NCBI GenBank assembly: GCA_023255625.1
Contig: JAHFLF010000001.1
Span: 504,074-568,073, forward strand
DNA length: 64,000 nucleotides
Origin: Candidatus Harrisonbacteria bacterium
Lineage (GTDB): Bacteria > Patescibacteriota > Minisyncoccia > UBA6257 > 1-14-0-10-44-23
Direction of reading: 5' to 3'
Numbering within the stretch: position 1 is the stretch's first letter; the number at the start of each line of letters is the position of its first letter. The translations under genes and the position numbers were made by a program. Under the pieces are notes generated by a model. That model made no database searches, had not been told where the DNA came from, and saw nothing but the letters and a program-made list of their open reading frames with translations. Below, one piece after another: positions 11,424 to 26,901 of the stretch.

Positions 11424-11445
11424 ATATACCCCCTAGGGGGTATAT
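11424..11445. promoter_or_regulatory. Putative CsoR operator: perfect 22-bp palindrome ATATACCCCCTAGGGGGTATAT
   Basis: Seen directly, ending 6 nt before the csoR start; CsoR operators are GC-core inverted repeats of the TACCC...GGGTA type. Confidence 0.55.
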
Positions 11446-11450
11446 ACATA

Positions 11451-11732: not shown

Positions 11733-11832
11733 AAATATGGCCGTACAAACATTCAAAATCAAAAGAATGCACCCCGGTACTAGAACCTGCTGGTTCAGTA
11801 CGGGGCAGGCTGTGCTTAACTTTCCATAAAAT

Positions 11833-14082
11833 ATGGTCACTCAAATTTATAAAATTCGCGGTATGCATTGTGCATCGTGCTCGGTGATTATTGAAAAGAC
11901 TTTGAAAAAGTTGGATGGAGTTAGTTCGGCGCAGGCAAATTACGGCACTGAATCCGTTAAAGTTAATTTTGACGAGGCGAAAATAAAACCCGAGGCGTTG
12001 TCAAAAAGTATTGAACCGCTCGGTTATTCGCTTGTTATGCCAGAGCCAGCACCCATGAATCATGGCAACATGACCTCTGCAGAAATGGGAATGTCTGAAA
12101 ATGAGCACGCAGAACATCTAGGCATCAATCAATCAAAAAAAGAGAAGTTAGCTGAGCTAGCGGCTTTACGAACGAAAGTCATTTCTGTGATTCCTCTGGC
12201 AGTCATCAGTATTTTTATTATGGCTTGGGACGCGCTCGCGCAGTTCAATATTATTTCTAGCATGACGCCGGTGTGGGAGGAATTTTTCCATCACCTTCTG
12301 CCGATCATGGCTACCTATACTCTTTTTGTCGTGGGTACGCCGTACCTGTTTGGCGTCTACCGATTTTTGCGTTATCGCAAAGCTAATATGGATACGCTTA
12401 TCGGTATCGGCACGCTGGCCGCGTTTATTTACAGCTTTGTGCTAACGGCATTTGAGGAGGCGCTCGCGCCGTTTTTGAATGTTAATCAGACTTATTATGA
12501 TGTGACGATTGTGGTTGTCGCGTTTATTACCTTTGGTAAATATTTGGAGATGAAGTCGAAGATTAAAACCGGCGACGCGATTGAGAAGCTACTGAATCTA
12601 CAAGCTAAAACAGCATTGGTGATCCGTAACGGCAAGGACCTGCCTGCCGGCAGGCAGGAGATAGAAATTCCGATTAACGAGGTGGTGAAAGGGGATATTC
12701 TGATTGTGAAATCCGGCACTAAAATTCCGGTTGATGGCGTGATTACCGATGGATCTTCATATGTTGATGAGTCCATGATGACGGGCGAACCGATTCCGGT
12801 GGAGAAGAAAGTGGGCGACCCGGTTGTCGCTGGTACCATGAACACGACCGGCAGTTTTTCGTTTCGCGCCACTAAAGTCGGCTCGGAGACATTACTTGCG
12901 CACATTATTAAAATGGTGGAGGAGGCGCAGGGGAGTAAGGCGCCGATTCAGGCGCTGGCGGATAAAATTTCCGGTGTGTTTGTGCCGATCGTTCTTGGTA
13001 TCGCGGCCCTGACACTGGCCACCTGGTTACTATTTGGATACGGTTCAATGGGGCTGACTTCTTTTGTCGCAATCCTGGTTATCGCCTGTCCGTGCGCGTT
13101 AGGGCTGGCAACGCCGACGGCGATTATTGTCGGCGTCGGTAAGGGCGCGCGCGAAGGGATTTTAGTTAAAGACGCGGCGACACTCGAAAAATTGCACAAA
13201 GTGAAAGTACTCGTTGTTGATAAGACCGGCACTATAACCAAAGGCAAGCCCGAGGTTACAAGTATCAAAAATTATTCCAAGTTAACCGATGGGAAAATTA
13301 TTGCAGTCATGGCTTCACTGGAAAGTAGGTCAGAGCATCCGATCGCGCACGCAATAATTACATACGCTAAACAAAATTCAATCCAAATTCCGACCGTTTC
13401 AAATTTTGAAATGCTAAAGGGCAGGGGAGTAAGTGGAACTGTTGATGGTATTGAATATTTTCTCGGGGGTGTGCCGATAATTCTTGCGGCAAAGAACGGT
13501 GAACCGATTGCGACGGTAACAGTCGCCGATGCCATCAAGCCGGAGGCAATTCAGGCGGTCAAAGATCTGCACACGCTCAATATTAGAGTGGTGATGCTTA
13601 CCGGTGACGGCAAAGACGCGGCGCAGGCGATTGCAAAAGAGGCAGGCATTGATGATTTTGTCGCGCAGGTTTTGCCGCAGGATAAACTTATAAAAATTAA
13701 AGAATTGCAATCGCAGGGGTTGTTCGTTGCCATGGCTGGTGATGGCGTTAACGACGCACCCGCGCTCGCGCAGGCCGATGTGGGTATCGCGATGGCCACC
13801 GGTACGGATGTGGCGATTGAGTCGGCCGGCATCACGCTGCTGCACGGTGATATCTCAAAGCTGGTCAAAGCGATCCGGCTGTCAAAGCTGACCATGCGCG
13901 GCATCAAGCAGAATTTGTTCTGGGCGTTTGTCTATAATATTGTTGGCATTCCGCTGGCCGCCGGCGTTTTTTATCCGATTTTTGGCTGGCTGCTTTCGCC
14001 GGTTTTTGCCGGTGCGGCGATGGCGCTTTCTAGCGTATCAGTTGTGGGCAACTCCCTCCGATTGAAAACTAAGAAACTATAA
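11833..14082 (+). CDS. copA: Copper-translocating P1B-type ATPase
   Basis: N-terminal HMA domain (GMHCASC), the CPC motif [17 protein letters not shown], and [10 protein letters not shown]. Confidence 0.9.
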
Positions 14083-14085
14083 TTT

Positions 14086-15114
14086 TTGTATATGACTGGG
14101 AAAACCGAACATCTGTTTCATATCACCGGCATGCACTGTGCCTCCTGCGTGGTTTTGATTGAGGAGCAAGTGAAGAATCATCCCGGTGTTGCGCAGGTCA
14201 AAGTAAGTTTGGCAGAGCGTACCGCAACTATAAGCGGCGAGTTCCCACATGACCGTGAAAAACTTGCAGGATTTTTTACCGAGCTAGTGAAGGAGCATGG
14301 GTACTCATTCTCACTTTCGCAGCAGAAGCCGCCGGTTAAGTGGGGTGAGTTTATATATGCACTGCCCATTGCGGTTGTGCTCATTGCTGGCTTTATCTTG
14401 CTGCAGCGGTTTGGCCTTGTAGATCTGATTGGCGGTGATGGAGTTACTTATGGTACCGCGTTTGTTGTGGGACTTATCGCCTCGGTTTCAACCTGCCTGG
14501 CGGTTGTTGGAGGACTCTTGCTCTCGCTTTCTGCGAGTTATGCAAAGAGTGGTCGTAAATGGCGTCCGCAGATTTTTTTTCATGTTGGTCGGCTTGTCGG
14601 ATTCTTTCTGCTCGGTGGAGCAATCGGCGCGCTTGGCACATCATTCACGCTCGGCAGTACCGGCAGTTTGATTCTCGGTATTATCGTGATGCTCGTCATG
14701 ATTATTCTCGGCATCAACCTGCTTGATGTATTTCACTTCACTAAACGATTGCAGCTGCGGATGCCCGGCGGTATTTCACGAATCCTTATGCGGCGAGAGG
14801 CGACGAATATGTTTGCACCTTTGCTGATTGGTGCTGCAACATTCTTCCTGCCCTGCGGATTTACCCAGTCAATGCAGGTGTACGCACTTTCCGCGGGCGG
14901 ATTTATTGCCGGCGGACTGACGATGCTGATATTTGCACTAGGGACCTTGCCGGTGCTTGCGCTTATCTCGTCGGGTGCGGCACGGATTGCACAGCTGTCG
15001 TGGAAGGGGATATTTTTTAAAACCGCAGGACTTGTAGTGATTGCACTTGCCGTGTTTAATGGTCTGGGAACATTAGCCGCGCTTGGCATTATTGATCCGA
15101 TATTTAATTTCTAA
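14086..15114 (+). CDS. HMA (GMHCASC) domain fused to a TauE/SafE-like multi-pass permease; putative metal-related membrane protein
   Basis: N-terminal HMA fold followed by about 8 TM helices. Confidence 0.5.
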   Translation: MYMTGKTEHLFHITGMHCASCVVLIEEQVKNHPGVAQVKVSLAERTATISGEFPHDREKLAGFFTELVKEHGYSFSLSQQKPPVKWGEFIYALPIAVVLIAGFILLQRFGLVDLIGGDGVTYGTAFVVGLIASVSTCLAVVGGLLLSLSASYAKSGRKWRPQIFFHVGRLVGFFLLGGAIGALGTSFTLGSTGSLILGIIVMLVMIILGINLLDVFHFTKRLQLRMPGGISRILMRREATNMFAPLLIGAATFFLPCGFTQSMQVYALSAGGFIAGGLTMLIFALGTLPVLALISSGAARIAQLSWKGIFFKTAGLVVIALAVFNGLGTLAALGIIDPIFNF

Positions 15115-15116
15115 CT

Positions 15117-15521
15117 ATGAATAGCAGCAGTAAACACATAGCGGTCTCAATCGTCATCAGTGTTCTGATTATTGCCGGGGCGATGGTGTATGTTGGGGCC
15201 GGTCGGGACGAAGGGGGAGAGCCGGCTGCAACCAATGTTGTTTCGGTTGTTGATGGAAGGCAGATCATTGATATTGCCGCCCGCGGCGGATATTCGCCGC
15301 GCAAAATTGCCGCAAAAGCGGGCATACCAACCGTCCTGCGCGTCACGACCAAAAATACCTACGACTGCTCTGTGGCGCTGACTATTCCGAAATTGGACTA
15401 TAAAAAATTCCTGGGTAGCACGGCGGTTACCGACATCCCAGTCTCCGCCGAGCAGGCAACTGGTACACTCCGCGGCCTGTGCAGTATGGGCATGTATAGT
15501 TTTAGCGTGGATTTCCAGTAG
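15117..15521 (+). CDS. Cupredoxin-like domain protein (secreted/membrane-anchored)
   Basis: Signal anchor plus a C-terminal ...GTLRGLCSMGMYSF motif typical of cupredoxin_1-like copper-binding domains found in copper operons. Confidence 0.5.
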   Translation: MNSSSKHIAVSIVISVLIIAGAMVYVGAGRDEGGEPAATNVVSVVDGRQIIDIAARGGYSPRKIAAKAGIPTVLRVTTKNTYDCSVALTIPKLDYKKFLGSTAVTDIPVSAEQATGTLRGLCSMGMYSFSVDFQ

Positions 15522-15522
15522 T

Positions 15523-15566
15523 TTTCTTATTCTCATGTTCTTAAGAACATGAGAATAAGAATTTTT
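15523..15566 (+). terminator. Rho-independent terminator of the copper operon
   Basis: Perfect 17-bp inverted repeat TCTTATTCTCATGTTCT/AGAACATGAGAATAAGA followed by ATTTTTTG. Confidence 0.75.
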
Positions 15567-15644
15567 TGATTGGGCGGGCGTTACCAAGCTTCCTATTGAA
15601 AAAAGACCTTCATAGTAGTAGTATTTACCAACAACTTAATAACA

Positions 15645-15720
15645 TTCCGGAGTAGTTCCCGCCCCAGAAGGGGCGAGGCTCGCTCAACAGTAGTTGAGCG
15701 GCAGTGGTTCTTACCGGAAG
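15645..15720. other. Structured segment sharing a 14-nt identity (TTCCGGAGTAGTTC) with the 5' end of the downstream tRNA; not a cloverleaf
   Basis: Direct comparison with 15760..15773; contains two hairpins (CGCCCC/GGGGCG; CGCTCAAC/GTTGAGCG). Confidence 0.3.
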
Positions 15721-15760
15721 CATTAGTTGCGTGTTAGTTGTCAGTAAAACTTAATATAAT

Positions 15761-16193
15761 TCCGGAGTAGTTCAGTGGTAGAACGCCTCGCTGTAAACAG
15801 GACCTACTGTCGAATATGCTTTTGAGGGATTTGGACCCAGATTGCGTGGCGGGTCGAAGTTACAAAAATTCAGTAATACCCAAGGGGTCTAGTGAATTTT
15901 CGTGACAAGACACCGACCGCAATACGGGACAAAGCACCAAAATCATATTCGACAGTAGGTCCAATAATTGCAGCTTTCAACCGAAAGGTTGATTGAAAAA
16001 TCTTGGGATAACGGTGAAACCCCCTTGGGGCAACACCGTGGGAACTCTGACATTAAGTCGGAGGACGCCGTAGAGACTAGATACCAAGAGACCTAAAGTG
16101 AAAACTATGGTCGTGATATAGTCCACCCCTTTCAGTAATGAGAGGACACGTGTAACGAGGATGTCGTAGGTCCGATCCCTACCTCCGGAGCCA
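15761..16193 (+). tRNA. tRNA-Asn(GUU) gene interrupted in the anticodon loop by a roughly 358-nt intron (exons 15761..15794 and 16153..16193 including encoded CCA)
   Basis: The two exons fold into a canonical cloverleaf (acceptor TCCGGAG/CTCCGGA; D-arm GTTCAGTGGTAGAAC; anticodon stem CCTCG/CGAGG; variable loop ATGTC; T-arm GTAGGTCCGATCCCTAC). Discriminator G and overall similarity to bacterial tRNA-Asn. The spliced anticodon loop CTGTTAA assumes the splice junction U|...G|. An alternative junction would give Thr(UGU). Confidence 0.65.
15795..16152 (+). ncRNA. Group I-like self-splicing intron within the tRNA-Asn anticodon loop
   Basis: R-like GAGACTAGA (16073..16081) and S-like GATATAGTCC (16115..16124) give a P7-type GACTA/TAGTC pairing. 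The 5' exon ends in U and the intron ends in G. A 19-bp perfect long-range stem pairs 15800..15818 with 15944..15962. A candidate internal guide sequence GCAGC at 15968 is complementary to the exon end GCTGT, with a U.G pair. Confidence 0.5.
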
Positions 16194-17792
16194 AGTGGGA
16201 TTTGCGAAGCCAAAAGCTTCGCTTTTCCTTTTCATTGCAGGGTTTGTAGAGGTTCGAGCGGAATCAGCTACTACTCCAACATAGTCATTGTTCTTGAATA
16301 TGCTTTGGAACGCGGGACGCAGCTCTATCCTCAATTTGCCTCTTTCAAGGAGGAGGTTCGAGCCAAGACAGCCCAGAATAGCTCTTCGGGTATCTGAATC
16401 ACCATTCAGAAACCAGAGGCGCGCATAGCGTGCGAAATTAAACGTTTTCTCGGTTAGCTCAATCCATTGCTCTAGTTGTTTTCCCTGGCCTTGTAAGTCA
16501 TTCTCGAGCGATTGCTTACGTTTTAGCAGCGTGCTCTTGAGTGCCTGGTACTCACCGTCAGAGATAAGCTGGCCATTTGTATTACTGCTTGATGTGTACT
16601 TTAGTAGTAATGATGCTAATTGCTCGGTTGCACCCTCCAGCTCCCTCTGCTTATTCTGAAAGGCGACTTGCTGTGTGATTGCTTCTCCCTGCCTAATCTC
16701 GTGCAAGTGTTTGATTGCCCAGGTTTTGAATCCTTCGGAAATAGTAACTCCTTGAAGCACAGAATCTATTTGACTATGCAACTTTTTAACCTCAATAGAT
16801 TTTTCTGTACAATCAGGGTTCTTTTTCTTTGTGCAATGATAGTAAATGTAATAGTGCACATTGCCATTTTTTTGATGTTTTATTTTTTCTTCTGCTGTAA
16901 TGCTAGAGCCGCAGCTCGCACAGCGCATTAAACCTGTGAAGGCAAATAGATGGCGTTTCGGGGCGGGCTTTCCTCGTTTCCCTAAGATTACTTGAACGTG
17001 TTGATATTCTTCTTCGGTAATCATTGGTTTGTGTTTCCCCTTAACCCAATTGCCGCTTCCGACAGGAAACTCAAAATATCCATAGTAGAAAGGATTGTTG
17101 AGAATCTTATAGATGGCACTGCGCGACATTGGGCTGCCGCCCAGTCGTTTACGTTGCACGGTTCGATAGCCCCATTCCTTGGTTGCAATTTTATGAATCC
17201 GTAATGGCGTATAGTTACCTGTAAGCATTAAGTCCCACATTCTGCGCACCAAATGAAACCTCTCTGGGTCTTCAACAAGTATTTTGTATCCTTTTTCCCT
17301 GTCTGGCGTATTTAAGTAGCCAGCAGGGGCAACGCCAGGTAGCCATCCGTCATTAACTTTCTTTCGTAAGCCTCTTTTTACATTGACGGATAGGTCTCGA
17401 ACAAATTGATTTGCCTGGCCGAACTCAACACCAATCAGAATACTGTTGTCTCCAGGGGTGTATTCCTTGCCATACGTTTGAATGCTTTGCAGTACGCTCC
17501 TTTGAAGCATCCAGCTAATTTGCCCACCATCTACGGGATTGCGCGCCAATCGGTCAAGCTTCCAGCACAATATGCCATTCGCTTCACCTTTATGGATACG
17601 TTGTAACATTTCAAGAAAGATTGGTCGGCCAGGCTCCTTAGCTGATTGAGATTCCGTAAATGTGCCGACAACATCCAATTTTGATTCGCTTGCAATCTTT
17701 TTGAGCTCATCAATCTGCGCATCAATTGATGCAACCTGCCTATCTTCCGTTTCACTCGACTTGCGAGCATAGATGAAGTACTTCATATTCAA
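16179..17792 (-). CDS. Large serine recombinase (phage-integrase type)
   Basis: N-terminal resolvase domain with catalytic Ser (YARKSS), a recombinase domain, a C-terminal Cys-rich zinc-ribbon/coiled-coil region; 3' end overlaps the tRNA 3' end. Confidence 0.85.
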   Translation of the reverse strand: MNMKYFIYARKSSETEDRQVASIDAQIDELKKIASESKLDVVGTFTESQSAKEPGRPIFLEMLQRIHKGEANGILCWKLDRLARNPVDGGQISWMLQRSVLQSIQTYGKEYTPGDNSILIGVEFGQANQFVRDLSVNVKRGLRKKVNDGWLPGVAPAGYLNTPDREKGYKILVEDPERFHLVRRMWDLMLTGNYTPLRIHKIATKEWGYRTVQRKRLGGSPMSRSAIYKILNNPFYYGYFEFPVGSGNWVKGKHKPMITEEEYQHVQVILGKRGKPAPKRHLFAFTGLMRCASCGSSITAEEKIKHQKNGNVHYYIYYHCTKKKNPDCTEKSIEVKKLHSQIDSVLQGVTISEGFKTWAIKHLHEIRQGEAITQQVAFQNKQRELEGATEQLASLLLKYTSSSNTNGQLISDGEYQALKSTLLKRKQSLENDLQGQGKQLEQWIELTEKTFNFARYARLWFLNGDSDTRRAILGCLGSNLLLERGKLRIELRPAFQSIFKNNDYVGVVADSARTSTNPAMKRKSEAFGFANPTWLRR

Positions 17793-18145
17793 CTTTTATG
17801 AAGACGAATGACAATGCCTAAGCTGACTACGCATAGGGCAGCTGCATAAAAAAATCGAAGCCAATCATGAGAGCTGAATGCGTTGATTCCTAGAATGATA
17901 GAAATAAGCGTAGCTCCTCCCAAAATGTGATTTAAATAACGTTCTTGTCTTTTGCTTCTTGACTGCGCTTTGACAAAAGATTTTGCTACTTCAAATAAAA
18001 CTTCCTCCTGCGAATAGTTAGGGTTATATTCTTTAACTAGCTCAACCTCATGCCGAGCATCAAAGTCGAGGCTAACCTTATCTACAAAGGCTTTACCTTG
18101 CTCTCGGACACTTTTCGCTTCTAGATTTTGATTGTGGGTAGTCAT
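17789..18145 (-). CDS. Hypothetical protein with C-terminal TM segment
   Basis: ORF translationally coupled to the recombinase (4-nt overlap). Confidence 0.4.
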   Translation of the reverse strand: MTTHNQNLEAKSVREQGKAFVDKVSLDFDARHEVELVKEYNPNYSQEEVLFEVAKSFVKAQSRSKRQERYLNHILGGATLISIILGINAFSSHDWLRFFYAAALCVVSLGIVIRLHKS

Positions 18146-18207
18146 AGTAGTAATTATTTATTAACTACAACTTTCCCAGAAATACAAAAAGGGACAGCCG
18201 TAGCCTG

Positions 18208-18334
18208 CGTCCCACAAGATTGAATGCACGAAGGCACCCAATTGCGGAGGTCGGCTGCCCCTTTCAGCCCGCAATTGGAGCCAAAAAAAGCAGAAACCCC
18301 CGTGCTTATATTCAATCTTGTAGGACGCAAATAA
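18208..18334. ncRNA. Candidate structured RNA of unknown family inside the integrative element
   Basis: Nested perfect stems: GTCCCACAAGATTGAAT/ATTCAATCTTGTAGGAC (17 bp, one G.U) enclosing CCAATTGCGG/CCGCAATTGG (10 bp), plus an upstream GGGAC..GTCCC hairpin. Confidence 0.3.
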
Positions 18335-18343
18335 AGCATAGCA

Positions 18344-19141
18344 CTACTGATTTGCTTTTTGAAGCAGGGTCTTAATAATCCCTTGCAGATAGGCGGGCTT
18401 ATTATCAATTGTTTTACGGCCTTGTACGTCTTCACGGTAAATGCCCCAAGCGCGTTCGATAATACTAATTCCTTGAGTTCGTAGTACGGACAGAAGAGGA
18501 TTCATAAATTGCTCTCCGACTTCTTGCGCTATTTGATAACACCTCGCTTCTTCCGTAGTCCGTGGTTCGTATTCCCTCACTAACGTTCCCTTAAAGGCCT
18601 CTTTGCCTAACGTAGATTTATTATCCTTGTGGGTATCCGTATCGTTATAGTGACTTCTGAATGACGGCGGAGCTGGATTGCCAGAAAATCCTTTAATCAC
18701 CTGAAGTTTTTTCTCCTGCAACTTCTGAATAGCACCCTCTGACTTCTGAGTAACCTCTGTTTCGGTAACTGTCTTGCTACGGCCTGGGGTAATCGCAGAA
18801 TCGTTGGTGAAGTAAGCGTCAAGATGCTTAATTTGCCCATTAGGAAGCAACCAGTCGTCGAAGTGAACATCGAAGGAGCCTCTGCGTCCCTGGCGAGATA
18901 GGTAGTGTACGTAGCGCTTCTTTTTCAGTGAGAGGAGCAAGTAATTTATGTGATTAGCCTCTACGTTTTCGTAAATGTCATCTCGAATTGCGATTAATGA
19001 CGTTGTTACTTTTCCATAGGGGTCTGCGTTATCTCGCAACCACTGATAAACTCTCCACTCACTACTCGTCATTTTTCCGCTACGAACATCGGAAGTGATG
19101 TAGCGCGGCGTAGTGGTATACGGCTTCGGCTTTTCTTTCAT
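18344..19141 (-). CDS. Hypothetical protein, basic, possible winged-helix DNA-binding N-terminus (replication/regulatory protein of the element)
   Basis: 265-aa ORF; no confident family assignment. Confidence 0.4.
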   Translation of the reverse strand: MKEKPKPYTTTPRYITSDVRSGKMTSSEWRVYQWLRDNADPYGKVTTSLIAIRDDIYENVEANHINYLLLSLKKKRYVHYLSRQGRRGSFDVHFDDWLLPNGQIKHLDAYFTNDSAITPGRSKTVTETEVTQKSEGAIQKLQEKKLQVIKGFSGNPAPPSFRSHYNDTDTHKDNKSTLGKEAFKGTLVREYEPRTTEEARCYQIAQEVGEQFMNPLLSVLRTQGISIIERAWGIYREDVQGRKTIDNKPAYLQGIIKTLLQKANQ

Positions 19142-19320
19142 AACTTTGGAATATCATTAGTTGGTTCGTCGAGCCACGCTTTTTTAAGTGGGCGATAAAT
19201 TACATCGAGCGACGTAAGCAGGCTTACTGCCTGCTCCATAGCAAACTCATCGGAGATTATCTCTCCGCGTTCTTCTTCCCATATTCGTTTGAACTCACGT
19301 AACGCTTTTTCGCTCAACAT
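19138..19320 (-). CDS. Small hypothetical protein
   Basis: 60-aa ORF coupled to the downstream gene. Confidence 0.3.
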   Translation of the reverse strand: MLSEKALREFKRIWEEERGEIISDEFAMEQAVSLLTSLDVIYRPLKKAWLDEPTNDIPKL

Positions 19321-19741
19321 AAAAGCCTGCTTGTGGCTTGGCGGGTTTCCGTTGGCGCGGCGACCCGCAAAGCCATAAACAGGCTATGCGTAATTTTTGC
19401 CAACGAAATTATCGCCGAGAATTGTAATTCTCATAGTTGAGTACGCAGTAATACAAAAGGCTACCACCGCATCACACACAACTGTGAGATGAAATGGTAG
19501 CCTCTCAATGATTCCTACCCAGCGGGCTCCCAAACCCGATACGCGCGCTCCCTCTTGCGAGAGCGTAGGCTCGAAGATGTTTTACGTGCCATCGACGAGC
19601 GGGGATTTATTAAGTTTTACTAACAAGATAACTGTAGCGCATCGAAAAGACCACGGCAATGCAAAGGCAGTTAGCATCTGTTATCTATAGTTATTAAATG
19701 TATACTATTGCTAGAGCTACTTATCCACAGTTTCAACGAAT

Positions 19742-22700
19742 ATGCACGGATTACATCAGGGATACTCATATCAAGACCTTCTTGCGGCTTTTCTTATCTC
19801 AGAAAATTTACATCGAAAGGATTTTAAAATTGCCGTTGAGCTTAAAGAGTGCGCAGGAGATGTATTTGATGACATAGTTTTCATCGCAGATAGTAGAAAA
19901 ACTAAAGTTCAAGTTAAGCACTCTGCTTCAAATACAGCATTAAATAAAAATAGTTTTCAAAACACTTCTAGCGACTTGAATCTTGATGGACTAGCTAAGC
20001 CTTTCAAGGCAAAAATTGAAGCTGATTATATTATTGCAACCAATCGTAAGGTAACCCCAGACCCTTTTTTTAAGGAAATAAAAGCCCCCAAAGTCTTTCG
20101 ATTAAAGTATAAATCTTTTTTAATTACTAACTCAGCTCAGAATAAGAAGTTCTTGGAAAAACTTGTTGTTGAATCGTCTTTACCCGACGCCTCATTTGAT
20201 TTAAATAAGCCAGGAAATTTAGAAAAGGAATTGCTAGGTTCTCTGCGCTCGCATGTAGGTATTGGATATTATCCCAACAATCAAGTGTCCGAACGCGATG
20301 TGGCTGGTCGCCTTATTCTACTAGCTTCCCAACTAAGGGGTGCTAAGGAGCATAATTTTGTAACTAGAGAAGAAATTTTTAAACATATAAATTTAAATGT
20401 TGAGTTCGGTCATATCGCCCAAGATTTTCCATTTATATCAACGGAGTATCGCCTCTATAGAAGTGAGATTACAGAAAAGCTCAGGAGACTGCTCTTAAAA
20501 GATACTTATGTTGTTCTTGAAGGGCCTCCAGGTAGTGGCAAGTCTCATATATTTGACGACCTACATTCGAAAATTTTTTCAGAGAAGATTATCGCCGTAC
20601 GACATTTTTGCTATTTGGAACCGACAGACAAGTTTGCCCAAGAACGGATAGTAGCAGAAACTTTGTATGGAAATTTTCTCCATCAGCTTGAACGTGCTGA
20701 GCCAAAGATTTCTGAAGAACTTCGGCCATATTTTGCTGCTACAAAAGTAAATCTTGAGAAATTCCTTGAAAAATTATGTGCTTCAGGAAAACGATTAGTG
20801 CTAATGGTAGACGGCCTAGACCATCTCAACCGAGTAGTTGCCCAGAATAAGTTGCCGCCAAGCCTGGTCCACGATTTCGTCGCCGAATTACTTGATTTGA
20901 AATTGCCGAAAGGATGTTCTCTTTTTATTGCCTCACAACCTGGAAACGAAATAAAAGAGATTATTGAAGAAAAAGGTGTAAAAGTTGTAGAACTGCCACC
21001 TTGGAATGAGAAGATGGTTGCTGAGTTTATAAAAAAACATAATGAACGCTCGGCTGGAACAAGACAAATTCCGATGAGTGATGAGATTATAGATACTTTT
21101 ACTCAGAAAACTGAAGGAAACCCGCTATATCTTACATACGTGTTGAAAGAGATACTGGGGTCTGGAAACGAAAATGATATTATTGCTTTCCTCAAGACAC
21201 TACCTCAACTTAGTAGCGACTTAAATAATTATTATAAATATCTTACGCACGACAGTGATATAAACGATTTTGCAGTGATTCAGACATTTGCTCTACTTGA
21301 TTTCAGCGTCTCTGCTGATGAGCTGAAGGAAATGTTTCCACCTATTCAAAAACGAGCTTTACAGCAAACAATTGCGAAGATACAGCCAATTCTAAAACCA
21401 GGACTTGTTCAGGGTGGTTTGCGTATTTATCACGAAAGTTTTAGAAGATTTATTATCGAGCAGAGCCATAAAAATAAACAGAAAGACAGTGAGCTCTATA
21501 GACACATCACGCAGTGGTTAAGCAGGAATGGATTTTATGCGTCTCAGAGAGCATATAGATATTTGATTCCGTACCTTATTCGTTCTGATGAATACCAACA
21601 AGCATATGAACTGCTAGCAGCAAATTTTGTTGCCCAAAGTCTATATTTTTTCCATTCTCCAGAAAGTATTAAAAATAATTTAAACAGAATTGCTGAATTA
21701 TCTGCCAGAGGTGGGCGTTGGGATATCTACTGTAAGTGCGTAGAGCTCCATCGCGCACTCCATACATACACCTGGGAACGTCAAGAATCAATTGACGATA
21801 TATACCACCAAGCAGTCTTGGATGTTCTTGGTACAGAAATCTTTTGCGAAAGAATGGTATTCGACGGCAAGGCAGTTTTTTCGAAGACTAATGGCATCCT
21901 GCTGTGCCAAATGGCGCAGCATAAGGGGGGAAATCCGCCCTGGGACCACTACAGTGTCGCTGGCGTTTCAATGAACGTTAGAGATGACTCACAAATTCGT
22001 TATTTTCAAGAGGTTGAAAGTGCGCATTATTTGAATCTTTGCCGCAATTCATCTCTGAAGGGCGCGCTAAATACTTTGCAGATGATGATAATTAGAAACA
22101 AATATAAAGGTACAGAAATGCGCCAGATAAGGCTGCTTCTGCGCGAATTTGATTACCTATTCGGTGTTGCGAAACGTAGTAAAGAATTGACAGCTTTTTC
22201 CGTGGCAATGGTTAAGAAAGTGCCTTTGTATATTGTAGTTGCGGAGTATTTGTACAAAGAAGGAATGAAAAAAGAAGCCGCAATGTTAGCCACCTTTGCT
22301 GGTCAACAAACCAAGAATAAAAGTTATATTACTCAGGCATTGCTTTGCGGCGGGAAGCCCGCAAGTTCAACTCGCTTGCCAGATTTTAAAAAATTAACGA
22401 AACAAGTTTTTGAATTTGAGAACCTTTATGATAAAGAGCGTCCCATATTTAGTGAATGGTACAAAACCCTTCTAATACAAGCCCGTATCAATCCTGGGGT
22501 AGTACAGGATGCAAAAAAGCTAGTTGTAAGAATTGATGGTTGGTATAGAGCTTGGATAAAGTTCTTGTTTGAATTGTCTCTGCTGGAAGCTTCAGATATA
22601 AAAAATTCTGGTAAAGCAAAATGGTTGCAAGACGCCTTGTCTGACTTGAATAAATATACACATCCATTCAAAGGTAAGCCACGAGCAATGGACTTATACG

Positions 22701-24388
22701 GGATTCGAGAAGATAGTACCGATTCTTTCCGAAGAACTCTTAATCTTGCAGCCAAATTAAACAATTACCAATCAGTAATATCACTATTGGGTGAGATTAG
22801 TCGTCGCACAACTTCATATCTGCAGGGCTCAAGCTCTGGCCCATTGGAGGGGGAAACATTAAATTCTTTACTAAAAGATACTTATTCGGATTTGAACATT
22901 ACGAACCGAAAAGTGGTTTTAAAGTTGCTTAGACAGAACGTGTTAGAACGCGCAGGTACATCACAATACTATGACTCATCTGCTTTTGAGTATTTAAAGT
23001 TAGGAAGTGTTCTCGCTCTGGCGGGAAATAATACTGAAGCAAAAAAGCGTTTTTTCGAGGGTTGTGTACACGTTGCAGCGTATGGTCATCGTAAGGACGT
23101 TACAATTTACGAGATTATTGACCCCGTTCCTTTTATCGCCGAGAAGGACATTCCTTTTGCGCAACAAGCATTAAAGAAACTTTATCCATTAGTAGAGACA
23201 GTATGGAGATACACCGACGGTAAATCAACTCAATACAGTCTTACTTACTGGCTTGAAGCGCTTGTTGACTCCGACTCTGTGGTTGCAGCTCAAGCAATTA
23301 CTGAACTTGTTACGAAAGACCCCAAACGAGATTGGAGAGTAGAAAGAGGAACAAATTATTTCTGTGATAAATTACTCGGAACAAGCCTTCCAAGAGAGCT
23401 GATTGCAGAATTATACGAAACAATCAACCAGATGAGGGATGTAGATTATGATGTTACTGTAGGACTGAAGATAGTAGAGTCCCTTCTTGCAGATGGGAAA
23501 AAGGAATATGCTGAAAAGCTGTTTGGTAGTATGAGTCATAATCTATACTACGCTTTAATTTTTGATGGCTATTTTAGGGAGCGTGATAACTTTCCCAAGA
23601 TGATTGCCTTTGCTAAGAAGTTCAATCTGATTATTCCAGAAGATGAACGAATGCGATTCGAGGCTGAGATAGAAAAGAAACCTATGGAGTTGCCTGGCGG
23701 TGTTCCTACCGAAAGTAAACCAATACCCAAATTCAAACTTAAAGGTATATCTCTAGAGAAACTACGTAGGTTGATGGACGAAAATCCTTCAAGTTACTTC
23801 TTTGAAACTACCAACAGGAAAGAGTTTGCTGAAGCGTTATTTAATCTTGATAAACAACATCCAGGGAAAGTACAGGAATTAATTCTTTCAGCATTTCGAA
23901 ATGGATATTTCAGAGATGCAGACATCGAGAATCTAATTAAATTGCAAGAATTTTTTATTAAGAAAAAGAAACCTGAAATTGTCGCCTTCATAGGAGTGCT
24001 TTGTTTTGTGTATGCGCGCGGTGGAAATGGCTGGCACTCTCTCGCTGATAGTAAATACAACCACTTGCTCAAAGATGCATTTAGGCTTTCTAGGGCTACT
24101 GCGGAGGATGTTCTAGCGGTTGAGATGTCATATGTGTTCACAAAGCAAGGATACTATACTGGCCCAACGCGACATTTTATTGAGTTCTTTGCATTGAATT
24201 CTGGCGTAAAAATGGCTGAGCTAATATGGAGAGAAGCATTTGATGTAATCAAGTTTCGGTTGCCCACGCCCAAAGAGCTTGATGAAATCTTAAACGCAGA
24301 AACTCCGACTTTTAACTACAATTCATCGAAATCTCTTAATGCCTCGCTCAAAAAATTGATTATTGCTCGTAAGGCAATAACGGGTTAG
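19742..24388 (+). CDS. STAND-class P-loop NTPase, 1548 aa: putative nuclease-like effector N-domain, NTPase, long helical-repeat C-terminal region (antiviral Avs-like architecture)
   Basis: Walker A LEGPPGSGKSH (about 20521..20547) and Walker B LVLMVDGLDHL. About 230-aa N-terminal domain with a D...(Q/E)xK-like signature (FDDIVFIADSRKTKVQVKHS). About 1000 aa of C-terminal alpha-helical repeats. Very AT-rich (about 37% GC) compared with the flanks. Confidence 0.65.
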   Translation: MHGLHQGYSYQDLLAAFLISENLHRKDFKIAVELKECAGDVFDDIVFIADSRKTKVQVKHSASNTALNKNSFQNTSSDLNLDGLAKPFKAKIEADYIIATNRKVTPDPFFKEIKAPKVFRLKYKSFLITNSAQNKKFLEKLVVESSLPDASFDLNKPGNLEKELLGSLRSHVGIGYYPNNQVSERDVAGRLILLASQLRGAKEHNFVTREEIFKHINLNVEFGHIAQDFPFISTEYRLYRSEITEKLRRLLLKDTYVVLEGPPGSGKSHIFDDLHSKIFSEKIIAVRHFCYLEPTDKFAQERIVAETLYGNFLHQLERAEPKISEELRPYFAATKVNLEKFLEKLCASGKRLVLMVDGLDHLNRVVAQNKLPPSLVHDFVAELLDLKLPKGCSLFIASQPGNEIKEIIEEKGVKVVELPPWNEKMVAEFIKKHNERSAGTRQIPMSDEIIDTFTQKTEGNPLYLTYVLKEILGSGNENDIIAFLKTLPQLSSDLNNYYKYLTHDSDINDFAVIQTFALLDFSVSADELKEMFPPIQKRALQQTIAKIQPILKPGLVQGGLRIYHESFRRFIIEQSHKNKQKDSELYRHITQWLSRNGFYASQRAYRYLIPYLIRSDEYQQAYELLAANFVAQSLYFFHSPESIKNNLNRIAELSARGGRWDIYCKCVELHRALHTYTWERQESIDDIYHQAVLDVLGTEIFCERMVFDGKAVFSKTNGILLCQMAQHKGGNPPWDHYSVAGVSMNVRDDSQIRYFQEVESAHYLNLCRNSSLKGALNTLQMMIIRNKYKGTEMRQIRLLLREFDYLFGVAKRSKELTAFSVAMVKKVPLYIVVAEYLYKEGMKKEAAMLATFAGQQTKNKSYITQALLCGGKPASSTRLPDFKKLTKQVFEFENLYDKERPIFSEWYKTLLIQARINPGVVQDAKKLVVRIDGWYRAWIKFLFELSLLEASDIKNSGKAKWLQDALSDLNKYTHPFKGKPRAMDLYGIREDSTDSFRRTLNLAAKLNNYQSVISLLGEISRRTTSYLQGSSSGPLEGETLNSLLKDTYSDLNITNRKVVLKLLRQNVLERAGTSQYYDSSAFEYLKLGSVLALAGNNTEAKKRFFEGCVHVAAYGHRKDVTIYEIIDPVPFIAEKDIPFAQQALKKLYPLVETVWRYTDGKSTQYSLTYWLEALVDSDSVVAAQAITELVTKDPKRDWRVERGTNYFCDKLLGTSLPRELIAELYETINQMRDVDYDVTVGLKIVESLLADGKKEYAEKLFGSMSHNLYYALIFDGYFRERDNFPKMIAFAKKFNLIIPEDERMRFEAEIEKKPMELPGGVPTESKPIPKFKLKGISLEKLRRLMDENPSSYFFETTNRKEFAEALFNLDKQHPGKVQELILSAFRNGYFRDADIENLIKLQEFFIKKKKPEIVAFIGVLCFVYARGGNGWHSLADSKYNHLLKDAFRLSRATAEDVLAVEMSYVFTKQGYYTGPTRHFIEFFALNSGVKMAELIWREAFDVIKFRLPTPKELDEILNAETPTFNYNSSKSLNASLKKLIIARKAITG

Positions 24389-24727
24389 TTTTTCGTAAAA
24401 ATATCTCAACTTGAAGAGCCTGTCCCCGCCAAAAGCGCCAAGTTAAAAAGGGAAACTACCACCACCCGAAAATCGGAAAAAGGACAGACTATAGCTTTCT
24501 ATTGATAACTAGGGATAACTACTGCTAACATCGGATAGCTCTGGTTATGAATTGTTAGCTCATCAGTACGGGCCTGAAGAGATATGTATAGTCAGCACCT
24601 GTACGGATACGATTATATCTATATCAGTACTAATTGATTACAGCTACGTCTACTGATAGTCTTGGTATGAAGAAGTATTCGGGGTTGTTCTGGTAATAGG
24701 TTCTAACCTCGTCTACGACTCGGAGCC

Positions 24728-25429
24728 ATGGATGTACATTTTGATATTCACAAAATTTTTGATGTAATACTAAAAATAGGTTCAGTCGCAGGTTTACTAT
24801 CTTTGGTATTTAGCCTTAGAGATCAAATTAAAAAGCGTTCAAAATTTAAGTTTGATTTTCGTGGTTCTAGCGGGAAAATAGATACCAGGGACAATTTGGA
24901 TTTTTACGATATCGCATTTGATGGCTATGTAAAAAATCAAAGTAACGAGCAAAATTCAATAACTGAGATTTATTATCAGATTTGGGGTAATAAAGGCAGG
25001 ACAAAAACCTTAGCTAGCGGGATGGGCGCAGAAATTTTTGACGCTAGCGATAAGTCTAAAAAGATTTCCTTACCAATCCTTTTTGAAGCAAAAGAAGGAA
25101 AACATTTAATTATTCGATTTAGCGTTTGCCTTACCGGTACACATGTCAATGAATTAGTCCGGGCGCTCAAGCCAGTGCAGACCGGTTCTCCATTTATGCT
25201 TCCCAAGCATGAATTCTCTTTGTCATTCAAGGACGTGGATGAGGTTTTGTTCGATGATAAAGGTAAAATTAGAAGTCAAAGATTAATAGATCTTTGGTGG
25301 ACACTGCCAAACACTTTCAGCGCTTTAAAGGTTGGTAATCCATTGCCATATCTCTGGCATATGTTTAAAATATTTTTTGTATACTTTTTTTATAAGATAT
25401 TTTCAGTCATTCAACGAATTGGATTTTAA
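24728..25429 (+). CDS. Hypothetical membrane-anchored protein (AT-rich island cargo)
   Basis: 233-aa ORF with an N-terminal TM; same low GC as the STAND gene. Confidence 0.4.
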   Translation: MDVHFDIHKIFDVILKIGSVAGLLSLVFSLRDQIKKRSKFKFDFRGSSGKIDTRDNLDFYDIAFDGYVKNQSNEQNSITEIYYQIWGNKGRTKTLASGMGAEIFDASDKSKKISLPILFEAKEGKHLIIRFSVCLTGTHVNELVRALKPVQTGSPFMLPKHEFSLSFKDVDEVLFDDKGKIRSQRLIDLWWTLPNTFSALKVGNPLPYLWHMFKIFFVYFFYKIFSVIQRIGF

Positions 25430-25513
25430 ATAAGGGAGTACCAATTTTAGCTAGCATTAACCCGGGTTAATTTTGTACCTGCGGTGGGGGTGGAATTTTG
25501 CTATACTTGCGGT

Positions 25514-26086
25514 ATGAAAAAAGCAGTTCTCTTATACGGCAGATTTTCAGAAAAAATTGCCACCCTTCCTGAATGCAACCCCAACGATGAGCGTAATTGG
25601 ATGGGTTGGACCAAAAAGCAGCTTATTGAGCGTGGCTATCAAGTGGTCTGTCCGACTATCCCAAAGGTTTGGGAAGCTCCTTACGGAGAATGGAAGAAAG
25701 CCCTTGGCGACGCTGCGATTGATGCAGATACAGTTTTGGTTGGACTGAGTGCTGGCGGTGCGGCTTGTGTACGGTATCTTGCCGAAGAGAAGAGGGCTAT
25801 CAATAAGCTCATCCTTGTCGCACCAGCACGATACGCTGAGGGAGAAGAACCTCTTTCCGCTGCTGCCGACTTCTACAATTTTCAGCTTAGCGATAGCGTT
25901 AAGCAGCAAATCAAGAATGGGACAACGATTTTCGTTTCCAATGATGAACCGCTAGCTGGCATTCAAGGGTCAGTAAAAATATACGAGAAAGAGCTCGGTG
26001 CGAAAGTAATTCGTTTTGAAGATAGAGGTCATTTTTCGTTTTTGATTAAAACCTTCCCAGAATTGGTTGAGGAAGTAGCTACCTAA
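25514..26086 (+). CDS. Alpha/beta-hydrolase, YdeN/RBBP9-like serine hydrolase
   Basis: GxSxG nucleophile elbow GLSAGG, about 190 aa, start at MKKAVLLYG. Confidence 0.5.
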   Translation: MKKAVLLYGRFSEKIATLPECNPNDERNWMGWTKKQLIERGYQVVCPTIPKVWEAPYGEWKKALGDAAIDADTVLVGLSAGGAACVRYLAEEKRAINKLILVAPARYAEGEEPLSAAADFYNFQLSDSVKQQIKNGTTIFVSNDEPLAGIQGSVKIYEKELGAKVIRFEDRGHFSFLIKTFPELVEEVAT

Positions 26087-26224
26087 CACTTGCCGTTTGC
26101 CGTAGCTTCAAAATACCGCTAAACTCTAGTTCTTCACGAATATGCTTCCAATCAAGGGTTCTAAACTTGTTCAATAGAGGGAGTCAAAGTTCTAATCAGT
26201 TTCATTACGGGGTATACTTTCGAT

Positions 26225-26845
26225 ATGCTGCTTTTTCTCAATTCCAATAGCTATCTCGGCCTCTCTCTTGCTCATTGGCTCGTAGTTGTATCCGCAGTTT
26301 TAAGTCTTAGCGGAGCCTTCGCTTATATTCGCGACATGCTCCGTGGGAAATCAACGCCCAATCTCGTAACATGGGGATTATGGGCATTCGCTCCCTTAGT
26401 CGCAACAGGTGCGGCGCTCTCCGCGTATGCTGATGGATGGTCCACTGTACGTATTTTCATGACTGGTTTTGGGCCACTTCTTATAACGATCACCGCACTC
26501 TTCGTTTCCAAGCGTTATTGGAAGTTGTCATTTTTTGATTACGCCTGTGGCGCGCTTTCTATAATTGCCCTTGGCGTATGGCTTATAGCTGGTTCACCGG
26601 TGTTAGCGATACTGCTGGCAGCAACAGCGGATTTGTTTGCCACGCTTCCAACTATCATTAAGGCATGGAAATATCCAGAAACAGAGACCCTCTATACCTA
26701 CTTCGTGGGGCTATTTACTGCCAGCATTATTATTCCCGCGATACCTGTTTGGAATATAGAGAACTCCGCTTTCCAAATATATGTCCTAATAGCTAATGCA
26801 GCCCTTTTCATCGCTGTATTTCGCAAACGTGTAAAGTGGTTCTAA
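26225..26845 (+). CDS. Integral membrane protein (about 6 TM), unknown function
   Basis: Hydrophobicity pattern. Confidence 0.4.
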   Translation: MLLFLNSNSYLGLSLAHWLVVVSAVLSLSGAFAYIRDMLRGKSTPNLVTWGLWAFAPLVATGAALSAYADGWSTVRIFMTGFGPLLITITALFVSKRYWKLSFFDYACGALSIIALGVWLIAGSPVLAILLAATADLFATLPTIIKAWKYPETETLYTYFVGLFTASIIIPAIPVWNIENSAFQIYVLIANAALFIAVFRKRVKWF

Positions 26846-26901
26846 TCTTCTGCACCAGCCGGAGCTTTCAAAAACAGAAAATGCGCTATAATGCGTAGTA
26901 T

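What the first reader, a model, noticed from the sequence alone, without database searches (positions are those of the whole stretch)
15761..19532. tRNA-Asn with integrase-type serine recombinase inserted at its 3' end: a small integrative element
A 537-aa large serine recombinase (catalytic Ser in YARKSS, a C-terminal zinc-ribbon/coiled-coil region) ends 14 nt inside the tRNA 3' end. It is followed on the same strand by a membrane protein, a basic protein that may bind DNA, and a 60-aa protein. A degenerate copy of the tRNA 3' region (GATTCCTACCCAGCGGGCTCCCA, about 19509..19532) may mark the distal attachment site. A 14-nt exact copy of the tRNA 5' end (15645..15658) lies 115 bp upstream of the tRNA. 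Together these point to recurrent recombination at this locus. The element is the likely vehicle or neighbour of the STAND gene.
Basis: partly seen in the sequence, partly recalled or inferred. Interest (0 to 1): 0.6.

Follow-up and report, generated by a model that had tools for sequence, protein, structure and literature searches.

The report
Serine-integrase defence island at tRNA-Asn
An 8.5-kb mobile element that carries an antiviral STAND gene is inserted by a large serine integrase exactly at the 3' end of an intron-containing tRNA-Asn gene of a Patescibacteria (CPR) genome, and it belongs to a large family, not described in the papers I could search, whose own attachment site lies inside the integrase gene and imitates a tRNA T-arm.

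Summary
tRNA-Asn(GUU) at 15761-16193 is split by a 358-nt group I intron. A 535-aa large serine recombinase (LSR) ends 15 nt inside its 3' end.

The true right end is 24699-24728: a conserved P arm plus the 8-bp core CGGAGCCA, which is also the tRNA 3' end (16186-16193). The element therefore spans 16194-24728: LSR, four small genes and an Avs-type STAND defence gene, 41% GC against 47% in the flanks.

Main evidence:
- 53 of 84 related loci, almost all Patescibacteria, have the LSR stop inside a convergent tRNA.
- In 13 of 13 loci with both ends, the T-loop-like GAACC motif lies exactly 5 bp further from the core in the P arm than in the tRNA. That is the published attP/attB signature.
- The 29 codons beyond the core are conserved as protein, so integration swaps the LSR C-terminus.
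- Strain variants L094 and L154 break identity exactly at the core.
- Two decayed right ends follow at 26157-26186 and 26838-26867, indicating tandem accretion.

No empty site or excised circle was found. I rate it a new variant of a known kind.

The parts
15761..15794 (+). tRNA-Asn(GUU) 5' exon (host)
   Evidence: ARAGORN with introns enabled. Read directly. Identical in strain variant L094.
15795..16152 (+). Group I intron at anticodon-loop position 35/36 (host side of the junction). Includes a long extra hairpin at 15800-15962.
   Evidence: RF00028 42.3 bits, E 3e-9. The 5' exon ends in U and the intron ends in G. Inverted repeat I1. This intron class is described by Nakagawa et al. 2026, PMC13011429.
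16153..16193 (+). tRNA-Asn 3' exon. The T-arm at about 16164-16185 serves as the B arm of attL.
16186..16193 (.). attL core CGGAGCCA: tRNA acceptor 3' strand, discriminator base and CCA.
   Evidence: 8-bp identity with 24721-24728. Identity to strain variant L094 ends at 16191. Identity to variant L154 ends at this core.
16194..16232 (+). P' arm of attL. It contains an element-supplied terminator hairpin (16204-16222) plus a T-tract for the tRNA, dual-coded with the LSR C-terminal codons KRKSEAFGFA.
   Evidence: Terminator scan. Fold -16.2 kcal/mol, z -3.1. An equivalent hairpin plus T-tract is present in all 22 relatives inspected.
16179..17786 (-). Large serine recombinase, 535 aa in the integrated form. 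Its last codons W-L-R-R-stop are antisense of the tRNA 3' end.
   Evidence: Pfam PF00239, PF07508, PF13408. PHROG 95 'integrase', E 1e-63. Invariant R8/S10 and the Cys cluster are kept in the 25-sequence alignment.
17789..18145 (-). 118-aa protein with a hydrophobic C-terminus. It is specific to this element.
   Evidence: no homologue in 84 related loci.
18154..18339 (-). 61-aa ORF, homologous to the N-terminal part of the ~160-aa gene that precedes the LSR in relatives.
   Evidence: tblastn hits in 10 loci. Called as a gene in L001.
18344..19141 (-). 265-aa basic accessory protein, function unknown. The N-terminal ~120 aa look like a winged helix by eye only.
   Evidence: Homologues in 14 loci. 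No Pfam, PHROG, PADLOC or PDB match. The AlphaFold2 single-sequence model is unusable, pLDDT 37.
19138..19320 (-). 60-aa protein, the most conserved partner of the LSR. Candidate regulator or directionality factor; this role is inferred.
   Evidence: Found in 52 loci, nearly always (50 of 52) 1-3 kb upstream of the LSR on the same strand. 170 cluster representatives at E<1e-3.
19321..19741 (.). Intergenic region between the divergent integration module and the cargo. The HTH_17 gene that 17 relatives carry here is absent.
19742..24388 (+). Cargo: 1548-aa STAND NTPase of Avs type, with an LmuA/HamA-like (Cap4-type nuclease) N-terminus.
   Evidence: Pfam NACHT, E 1e-12. PADLOC Avs1b 3.8e-18, LmuA 2e-10, HamA 2e-5. 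GC 38.9%.
24630..24728 (-). Detached C-terminal tail of the LSR: WLR+VVDEVRTYYQNNPEYFFIPRLSVDVAVIN, then stop. It is in frame with the LSR only in the excised circle.
   Evidence: the same 27-codon open frame in the 8 closest elements, with synonymous-biased variation.
24699..24720 (+). P arm of attR: GGTTCTAA plus a 14-nt spacer. It mimics a tRNA T-arm but sits 5 bp further from the core.
24721..24728 (.). attR core CGGAGCCA
24729..26186 (+). Remnant of an older element: a 233-aa gene and a 200-aa Ser-hydrolase gene, ending in a degenerate P arm plus core at 26157-26186 (GGTTCTAA-N14-GGGAGTCA).
   Evidence: GC 39.9%. Motif search. The 233-aa gene sits in variable defence-type contexts elsewhere.
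26187..26867 (+). Remnant of an oldest element: a 206-aa gene ending in a third P arm plus core at 26838-26867 (GGTTCTAA-N14-CGGAGCTT). The core matches the L094-type junction.

Best explanation
Window 16194-24728 is an 8.5-kb integrative element. Its large serine recombinase (LSR) inserted it by attP x attB recombination into the 3' end of the host tRNA-Asn gene.

Shown by sequence:
- The crossover lies within the 8-bp core CGGAGCCA, that is the acceptor 3' strand, the discriminator base and CCA.
- Left of the core, the tRNA T-arm is the attB half-site.
- Right of the core, the element supplies a terminator for the tRNA, written on the opposite strand to the last LSR codons.
- At the far end, the element's own P arm (GGTTCTAA-N14-core) copies the T-loop motif but places it 5 bp further out.
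- attP lies inside the 3' end of the LSR gene. The excised circle would therefore encode a 563-aa LSR with a conserved 29-aa tail, whereas the integrated copy encodes 535 aa ending in tRNA-antisense codons.

Inferred:
- The zinc-ribbon domain reads the T-loop-like motif, and the 5-bp offset is how the enzyme tells attP from attB.
- The cargo is an Avs-type STAND antiphage protein.
- New elements insert at the tRNA-proximal position and push older ones outward. Two decayed right ends remain downstream, and in one strain another element sits between the tRNA and this one.
- The element is one member of a clade of at least ~600 LSR loci, almost all in Patescibacteria, that target tRNA 3' ends and carry variable defence cargo.
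For: - LSR domains and conserved catalytic residues.
- In 53 of 84 related loci the LSR stop lies 12-117 nt inside a convergent tRNA: Asn most often, also Ser, Gln, Thr and others. The family C-termini P(S/T)WL(R/P)(G/R) are antisense of GAGCCA.
- The conserved motif [WL]LR.VDD(V/I)RTY continues the LSR ORF in loci that have no tRNA. In tRNA-adjacent loci, including the window, it lies 5.5-10 kb upstream, beyond the cargo.
- In 13 of 13 loci with both ends, GAACC starts 17-19 nt after the core in the P arm and 12-14 nt after it in the tRNA arm, always a 5-bp difference. This matches the ZD-motif shift reported by Rutherford et al. 2013, PMC3783163.
- Tail coding constraint in the 8 closest elements: all have 27 open codons; third-position differences number 391 against 201 and 194 at positions 1 and 2; there are 167 synonymous codon pairs against 31-34 in shifted frames.
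- Strain variant L094 is 100% identical to window 5117-16191 and then carries a different LSR.
- Strain variant L154 is 99.6% identical from the right flank through the element to the core, then switches to another P-type arm, giving a 563-aa LSR, P0412.
- GC is 41.2% in the element against 47.2% and 47.3% in the flanks.
- The motif GGTTCTAA-N14-18-SGGAGYCA occurs twice against 0.00 expected by chance.
- Cargo varies among relatives (STAND, type I and type II R-M, AbiEii) while the integration module is conserved. The STAND gene matches Avs1b and LmuA.
Against: - No unoccupied attB and no excised circle of this particular element was found. All 5 contigs with the identical right flank carry it. 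Two junction searches in JGI metagenomes found nothing. No related short contig is circular.
- The nearest LSR relative is only 77% identical, so no second copy shows recent transposition.
- The HTH_17 gene present in 17 relatives is missing here, and no directionality factor was identified, so the copy may no longer excise.
- attL and attR share only 8 bp, which alone is weak. The 8-mer occurs 3 times on the + strand of the window.
- L094 and L154 come from the same sample but do not overlap, so the tRNA|X|element arrangement is reconstructed, not read on one molecule.
- Several attP-type LSRs lie in long chromosomal contigs such as L074, L064 and L076. 'attP-type' therefore does not always mean excised.
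Confidence: 0.85

Rival explanations
1. One reading: a 3.7-kb element (15761-19532) bounded by a degenerate tRNA 3' copy at 19509-19532, with the STAND gene only a neighbour.
For: The LSR and the small genes do lie in this span.
Against: - The 19509-19532 match is at chance level.
- The family P-arm motif and the core are at 24699-24728.
- The low-GC block includes the STAND gene.
- Relatives have cargo between the module and the P arm.
Confidence: 0.03
2. A fixed, no longer mobile island: the architecture is that of an LSR element, but this copy cannot excise and is now inherited vertically.
For: - No empty site or circle was found.
- The HTH_17 gene is missing.
- The element is present in all contigs of the population that carry the right flank.
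Against: - The LSR is intact, with all family-invariant residues.
- The detached tail is still open for exactly 27 codons and its P arm fits the consensus. The two older right ends, by contrast, are visibly decayed.
- The locus is still recombining in the population.
Confidence: 0.3
3. Invertible segment: the 19-nt inverted repeat 15738-15756 / 19608-19626 marks a segment (tRNA plus LSR module) that the serine recombinase flips.
For: The inverted repeat is 18/19 identical, E 0.004. AACTTAATA occurs 3 times against 0.64 expected.
Against: - Only 1 of 40 other loci has any comparable inverted copy, and that one is a marginal 13 nt.
- No inverted variant was seen in L001, L085, L086, L094, L151-L154.
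- 2 of 100 shuffles reach 3 copies of the 9-mer.
- The domain architecture is that of an integrase, not a small invertase.
Confidence: 0.03
4. Prophage or phage satellite remnant, rather than an autonomous integrative defence island.
For: LSRs are typical phage integrases, and the LSR matches PHROG 95.
Against: - None of the other six proteins tested matches any PHROG.
- The clade is nearly absent from IMG/VR: one hit at 48% identity, the rest below 40%.
- Elements are only 5.5-10 kb and consist of the module plus defence cargo.
Confidence: 0.07

Closest known systems
Phage and ICE serine integrases (A118/LI, Bxb1, phiC31, SPbeta SprA)
   Same: - Same three-domain architecture.
- Short core.
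- P and B half-sites carry the same outer motif, shifted by 5 bp, as described by Rutherford et al. 2013.
- The integrase gene sits next to attL.
   Different: - The target is a tRNA 3' end. Mageeney et al. 2020 state that S-Ints had not been known to target tRNA genes.
- attP lies inside the integrase ORF, so integration changes its C-terminus.
- The carrier is a small defence island in Patescibacteria, not a phage or conjugative element.
- No known directionality factor.
tRNA-targeting genomic islands with tyrosine integrases (Islander-type islands, tycheposons)
   Same: - Integration at the tRNA 3' end, with the gene restored by element sequence.
- The integrase gene adjoins the tRNA.
- Tandem accretion, with the newest element nearest the tRNA.
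- Defence or adaptive cargo. 27 of 937 tycheposon-like elements carry an LSR.
   Different: - The recombinase family and mechanism are different.
- Only 5-8 bp are shared between the ends, instead of a displaced tRNA fragment of 20-50 bp.
- The element end mimics the T-arm rather than copying it.
SSV-type archaeal integrases and integration-dependent immunity of mycobacteriophages
   Same: attP lies inside a gene of the element, so integration changes the encoded protein.
   Different: In those systems a tyrosine integrase gene is split (SSV), or a repressor is truncated (cluster G and related phages). Here only the last ~29 residues of a serine integrase are exchanged.
Avs (antiviral STAND) defence proteins
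   Same: The cargo protein has an Avs1b-like NTPase core and a nuclease-type N-terminus.
   Different: The match covers only the NTPase core, residues 239-580 of 1548. The sensor region has no match. No function was tested.
Group I introns at position 35/36 of Patescibacteria tRNA-Asn and tRNA-Asp (Nakagawa et al. 2026, PMC13011429)
   Same: Same tRNA, same insertion position, same phylum, and the same failure of default annotation tools.
   Different: That paper does not mention recombinases or islands next to these tRNAs. The intron here carries an extra ~160-nt hairpin.

Membership tests
Large serine recombinase (serine integrase) | N-terminal resolvase catalytic domain with the Ser nucleophile | tested here: met
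   PF00239, E 2e-18. YARKSS, with R8 and S10 invariant in 25 homologues.
Large serine recombinase (serine integrase) | Recombinase domain plus zinc-ribbon domain | tested here: met
   PF07508 1e-7 and PF13408 1e-9. Cys289, 292, 318 and 326 are invariant.
Large serine recombinase (serine integrase) | Coiled-coil motif inserted in the zinc-ribbon domain | not tested
   Residues ~350-450 are helical-looking and conserved, but no coiled-coil prediction was run.
Large serine recombinase (serine integrase) | attP and attB half-sites share an outer (ZD) motif that lies 5 bp closer to the centre in attB | tested here: met
   13 of 13 loci: GAACC is 17-19 nt after the core in the P arm and 12-14 nt after it in the tRNA arm. 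Criterion taken from PMC3783163.
Large serine recombinase (serine integrase) | Catalyses attP x attB integration with a 2-bp crossover | not testable with these tools
   Natural junction polymorphisms place the exchange within CGGAGC(CA). The dinucleotide itself is unknown.
Large serine recombinase (serine integrase) | Cognate recombination directionality factor | tested here: inconclusive
   The conserved 60-aa partner (52 loci) and the HTH_17 gene (17 loci, absent here) are candidates only.
tRNA-integrating genomic island (Islander type) | Tyrosine integrase | tested here: not met
   The only recombinase is of the serine type.
tRNA-integrating genomic island (Islander type) | Intact tRNA at one end and a displaced tRNA 3' fragment at the other | tested here: inconclusive
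   Only the 8-bp core is repeated. The adjacent arm is a T-arm mimic, not a copy.
Avs antiviral STAND | STAND NTPase core related to Avs families, with an N-terminal effector | tested here: met
   Avs1b 3.8e-18, LmuA 2e-10, NACHT 1e-12.
Avs antiviral STAND | Protection against phage | not testable with these tools
Prophage / phage satellite | Structural, packaging or phage replication genes | tested here: not met
   No PHROG hits other than the integrase. The clade is nearly absent from IMG/VR.
Patescibacteria tRNA group I intron at 35/36 | Group I fold inserted between anticodon positions 35 and 36 of tRNA-Asn | tested here: met
   ARAGORN reports i(35,358). RF00028 E 3e-9, but 42.3 bits is below the gathering score of 50. 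The exon ends in U and the intron ends in G.

The most novel reading that the evidence does not exclude
Placing attP inside the integrase gene may be a built-in state switch. The excised circle makes a 563-aa integrase with a conserved 29-aa tail (VVD(D/E)VRTY(Y/W)Q...FFIP(K/N)LS...). The integrated copy makes a tail-less 535-aa enzyme. The tail would then control directionality or activity, for example by making only the circular form competent for integration and so partly replacing a separate directionality factor. In tandem arrays the tail of an older integrase is replaced by the one encoded in the newcomer's P arm, as seen in P0412.
Probability: 0.3. Interest if true: 0.8.

Novelty: new variant of a known kind. 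Interest (0 to 1): 0.66.

Why it matters
- Serine integrases are generally thought not to use tRNA genes. The one large survey I read found 14 of 297 cases and asked for experimental proof. Here a clade of at least ~600 loci does so systematically.
- The natural sequences show how. The element's site imitates the tRNA T-arm with the 5-bp offset that structural work proposed as the attP/attB discriminator. That gives dozens of ready-made natural attP/attB pairs for testing that model and for use as integrase tools.
- It identifies a vehicle for defence genes in Patescibacteria, whose mobile elements are poorly known.
- It shows a gene arrangement in which integration rewrites the integrase's own C-terminus.
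- Practical point: genome annotators miss both the intron-bearing tRNA and, as a result, the island.

Tried and rejected
- Aligning the tRNA 3' half to 19300-19760 gave only chance-level scores.
- A search for a displaced tRNA fragment anywhere in the window found none beyond the 8-mer.
- Empty-site tests failed:
  - The identical right-flank proteins always co-occur with the element.
  - Orthologues of the 233-aa right-flank gene lie in unrelated, defence-like contexts.
  - The nearest left-flank orthologue is only 63% identical, so no sister species is available.
  - Two predicted empty-junction patterns are absent from JGI metagenomes.
- Circular contigs: none of 23 complete short contigs has terminal overlaps.
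- The IMG/VR scan gave almost no close relatives.
- The 265-aa protein has no match in Pfam, PHROGs, PADLOC or a PDB profile search.
- My exact predicted 563-aa excised-form protein is not in the collection. The 563-aa protein that is there (P0412) has another element's tail.
- A longest-common-substring search for cores picked spurious k-mers. I replaced it with anchoring on the tRNA end, with five loci re-anchored by hand.
- The invertible-segment idea was rejected because the inverted repeat is not a family feature.

Full report
**1. What is at the coordinates**

Default ARAGORN and Rfam at gathering thresholds find no RNA gene in the whole window. Read directly, the sequence shows the two halves of a tRNA about 360 nt apart. 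ARAGORN with intron detection calls tRNA-Asn(gtt) at 15761-16193 with a 358-nt intron at position 35. A sensitive Rfam scan finds a group I intron (RF00028, 42.3 bits, E 3e-9, below the gathering score of 50) at 15953-16145. The 5' exon ends in U and the intron ends in G. This is the class of position-35/36 introns recently described and shown to splice in Patescibacteria tRNA-Asn and tRNA-Asp (PMC13011429).

ORF 16179-17792 (-) has Resolvase, Recombinase and Zn_ribbon_recom domains. It is a large serine recombinase (LSR). The real start is probably the ATG at 17786, giving 535 aa. Its stop codon lies inside the tRNA, an overlap of 15 nt. ORFs of 118, 61, 265 and 60 aa follow on the same strand.

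**2.

The proposed distal site 19509-19532 does not score above chance. The upstream '14-nt copy' is really a 26-nt repeat, 15633-15658 versus 15748-15773, 24/26 identical. It lies in DNA that is identical in a strain carrying a different element. It is therefore host sequence and not a product of this element.

**3. The family**

The LSR has thousands of homologues, the nearest only 77% identical. Three close relatives share a layout:
- variable defence cargo (STAND, type I R-M plus AbiEii, or type II R-M) on one strand, headed by a small HTH_17 gene;
- divergently, a 50-60-aa gene, a 260-307-aa gene, a ~160-aa gene and the LSR.

In L003 the LSR stop lies 15 nt inside an intron-less tRNA-Asn. 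In L004 it abuts an intron-bearing tRNA-Asn.

The best 80 are almost all from Patescibacteria MAGs. In 53 of 84 loci the LSR stop lies 12-117 nt inside a convergent tRNA. The tRNA is Asn in 26 loci. In 7 more it is called 'Thr(tgt)+intron'; at least one of these (L004) I read as Asn with a shifted splice call. The others include Ser and Gln. The family C-termini ...P(S/T)WL(R/P)(G/R) are the antisense of a tRNA 3' end, GAGCCA.

**4. The attachment sites**

Loci with no tRNA after the LSR continue the ORF with a conserved tail...[WL]LR.VD(D/E)(V/I)RTY.... In tRNA-adjacent loci the same motif lies 5.5-10 kb upstream, beyond the cargo. In the window it is at 24630-24728, reading WLRVVDEVRTYYQ... 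on the LSR strand. Similarity to the LSR end begins exactly at WLR, which is CGGAGCCA. So the attL core is 16186-16193, the attR core is 24721-24728, and the element spans 16194-24728 (8,535 bp).

In all 13 loci that hold both ends, the T-loop-like GAACC begins 12-14 nt after the core in the tRNA arm and 17-19 nt after it in the distal arm. The difference is always 5 bp (five loci were re-anchored by hand on the conserved GCGG, CGG or CTC of the tRNA end). Rutherford et al. 2013 proposed exactly this for serine integrases: the zinc-ribbon-domain motif is 'shifted by 5 bp toward the center' in attB relative to attP. The element's P arm is thus a T-arm mimic placed at attP spacing.

GC supports the boundaries: 41.2% in the element, 47.2% on the left and 47.3% beyond 26190.

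**5. attP is inside the integrase gene**

In the eight closest elements the frame after the core stays open for exactly 27 codons. It encodes D(D/E)VRTY(Y/W)Q....(Y/W)FFIP(K/N)LS.......stop. Differences are biased to third positions (391 against 201 and 194). Synonymous codon pairs number 167, against 31-34 in the shifted frames. The pattern persists more than 45 nt beyond the DNA motif, which is outside any plausible half-site.

In the integrated state this segment has no start codon, and two loci have a stop immediately before it. It must therefore be translated as the LSR C-terminus when attP is intact. The excised form would be 563 aa, and integration replaces the tail by 'R-stop'. The functional meaning of the swap is inferred, not shown.

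On the other side of the core, the element supplies a hairpin plus T-tract for the tRNA (16204-16232). This is conserved across the family and dual-coded with the LSR codons K(R/G)K..AF...

**6. Population evidence**

No empty site was found, but two strain variants from one ENA sample are informative.
- L094 is 100% identical to window 5117-16191. It then carries a different LSR (495 aa, 26% identity, tail ...KLRR-stop that also reads into the tRNA) and an HTH_17 gene.
- L154 is 99.6% identical to the window from the right flank through the whole element up to the core. It then switches to another P-type arm (GAACC 17 nt after the core) followed by other cargo. This gives a 563-aa LSR, P0412, with the tail WLDTFRTLDW....

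Together they fit tRNA|X|this element. A newcomer has inserted at the tRNA-proximal position, with the junction exactly at the core. The two contigs do not overlap, so this arrangement is reconstructed rather than read directly.

**7. Tandem accretion**

The composite motif GGTTCTAA-N14-core occurs three times on the + strand:
- 24699-24728, the intact attR;
- 26157-26186, with the degenerate core GGGAGTCA;
- 26838-26867, with the core CGGAGCTT, which matches the L094-type junction.

The segment 24729-26190 is also AT-rich, at 39.9% GC. Its 233-aa gene occurs elsewhere inside R-M operons, beside NERD and Fic genes, or downstream of a tRNA-Trp next to an LSR fragment. The locus is therefore a stack of at least three elements, of which only the newest keeps its integrase.

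**8. Cargo and accessory genes**

- The 1548-aa protein matches NACHT, Avs1b (3.8e-18) and LmuA/HamA at its N-terminus. It is an Avs-type antiphage STAND protein.
- The 60-aa protein accompanies the LSR in 52 loci. It is my candidate for a regulator or directionality factor, by inference only.
- The 265-aa protein occurs in 14 loci but matches nothing known.
- The HTH_17 gene of 17 relatives is absent here, which leaves open whether this copy can still excise.

**9. Rivals**

- A 3.7-kb element is contradicted (section 2).
- An invertible segment bounded by the 19-nt inverted repeat is unlikely, because the repeat is not a family feature.
- A prophage or satellite is unlikely: there are no phage genes and the clade is nearly absent from IMG/VR.
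- A fixed, immobile island remains possible at about 0.3.

**10. Novelty**

LSR integrative elements are a known kind. Mageeney et al. [quoted passage not shown] The tycheposon work notes only a minority of LSR-bearing elements. Searches of the paper library found no description of this Patescibacteria clade, of T-arm mimicry by attP, or of a C-terminal swap in a serine integrase. I rate it a new variant of a known kind, with interest about 0.66.

Noticed in passing
window 15795-16152: Group I intron at position 35/36 of tRNA-Asn. It hides the only tRNA in the 64-kb window from default ARAGORN and Rfam. It carries an extra, very stable ~160-nt hairpin (arms 15800-15824 / 15938-15962; the part folded, 15797-15945, gives z -4.45). 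The class is already published (PMC13011429). About 15 of the 53 LSR-adjacent tRNAs in relatives also carry introns of 206-582 nt.
   Followed up: partly
window 15633-15747: A 26-nt repeat of the tRNA leader plus its first 14 nt heads a 77-nt sequence (15646-15722). This folds into an acceptor-like closing stem with two GC-rich hairpins (-37.6 kcal/mol, z -4.4) and ends ...CCGGAAGCA. There is no Rfam or ARAGORN hit. It is host DNA. It could be a tRNA-like RNA or a decayed tRNA duplicate; unexplained.
   Followed up: partly
window 15738-15756 and 19608-19626: A 19-nt inverted repeat (18/19), with one arm just upstream of the tRNA (host) and the other in the element's 420-nt intergenic region. 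It is not found in relatives (1 marginal case in 40), so it is probably chance or a shared promoter-like motif.
   Followed up: yes
window 16204-16232 and the equivalent position in L003-L061: A rho-independent-type terminator for the tRNA, supplied by the element and encoded on the strand opposite to the last LSR codons. It is conserved across the family.
   Followed up: partly
L094 11063-12727: A second, unrelated LSR lineage (495 aa, 26% identity) ends ...KLRR-stop inside the same tRNA-Asn 3' end and is followed by an HTH_17 gene. This suggests the geometry is either convergent or very ancient.
   Followed up: partly
L053, L064, L074, L076, L081 (Verrucomicrobiota, Latescibacterota): LSRs of the clade with an intact attP-type tail lie inside long chromosomal contigs (up to 2.2 Mb) with no tRNA next to them. 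They may be internal junctions of tandem arrays, or elements integrated in some other way. Not examined.
   Followed up: no
P0262 (5046 aa) and P0270 (2322 aa): The ~50-aa domain of the LSR-associated 60-aa protein is repeated 12-14 times in two giant proteins of unknown origin.
   Followed up: no
L002 10404-12020: A 538-aa fusion of reverse transcriptase and trypsin-like protease lies between two LSR genes in the closest relative's locus. It is probably defence cargo of a neighbouring element.
   Followed up: no
window 35001-36000 and 49001-50000: Two 1-kb bins with 63-65% GC in a window that averages 48%. Rfam finds no RNA gene there. Not examined.
   Followed up: no
window 15524-15561: A perfect 38-nt palindrome followed by a T-run. 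It is the terminator of the heavy-metal transport operon (P-type ATPase, HMA-DsbD_2 protein, cupredoxin-like protein) that forms the left host flank.
   Followed up: no
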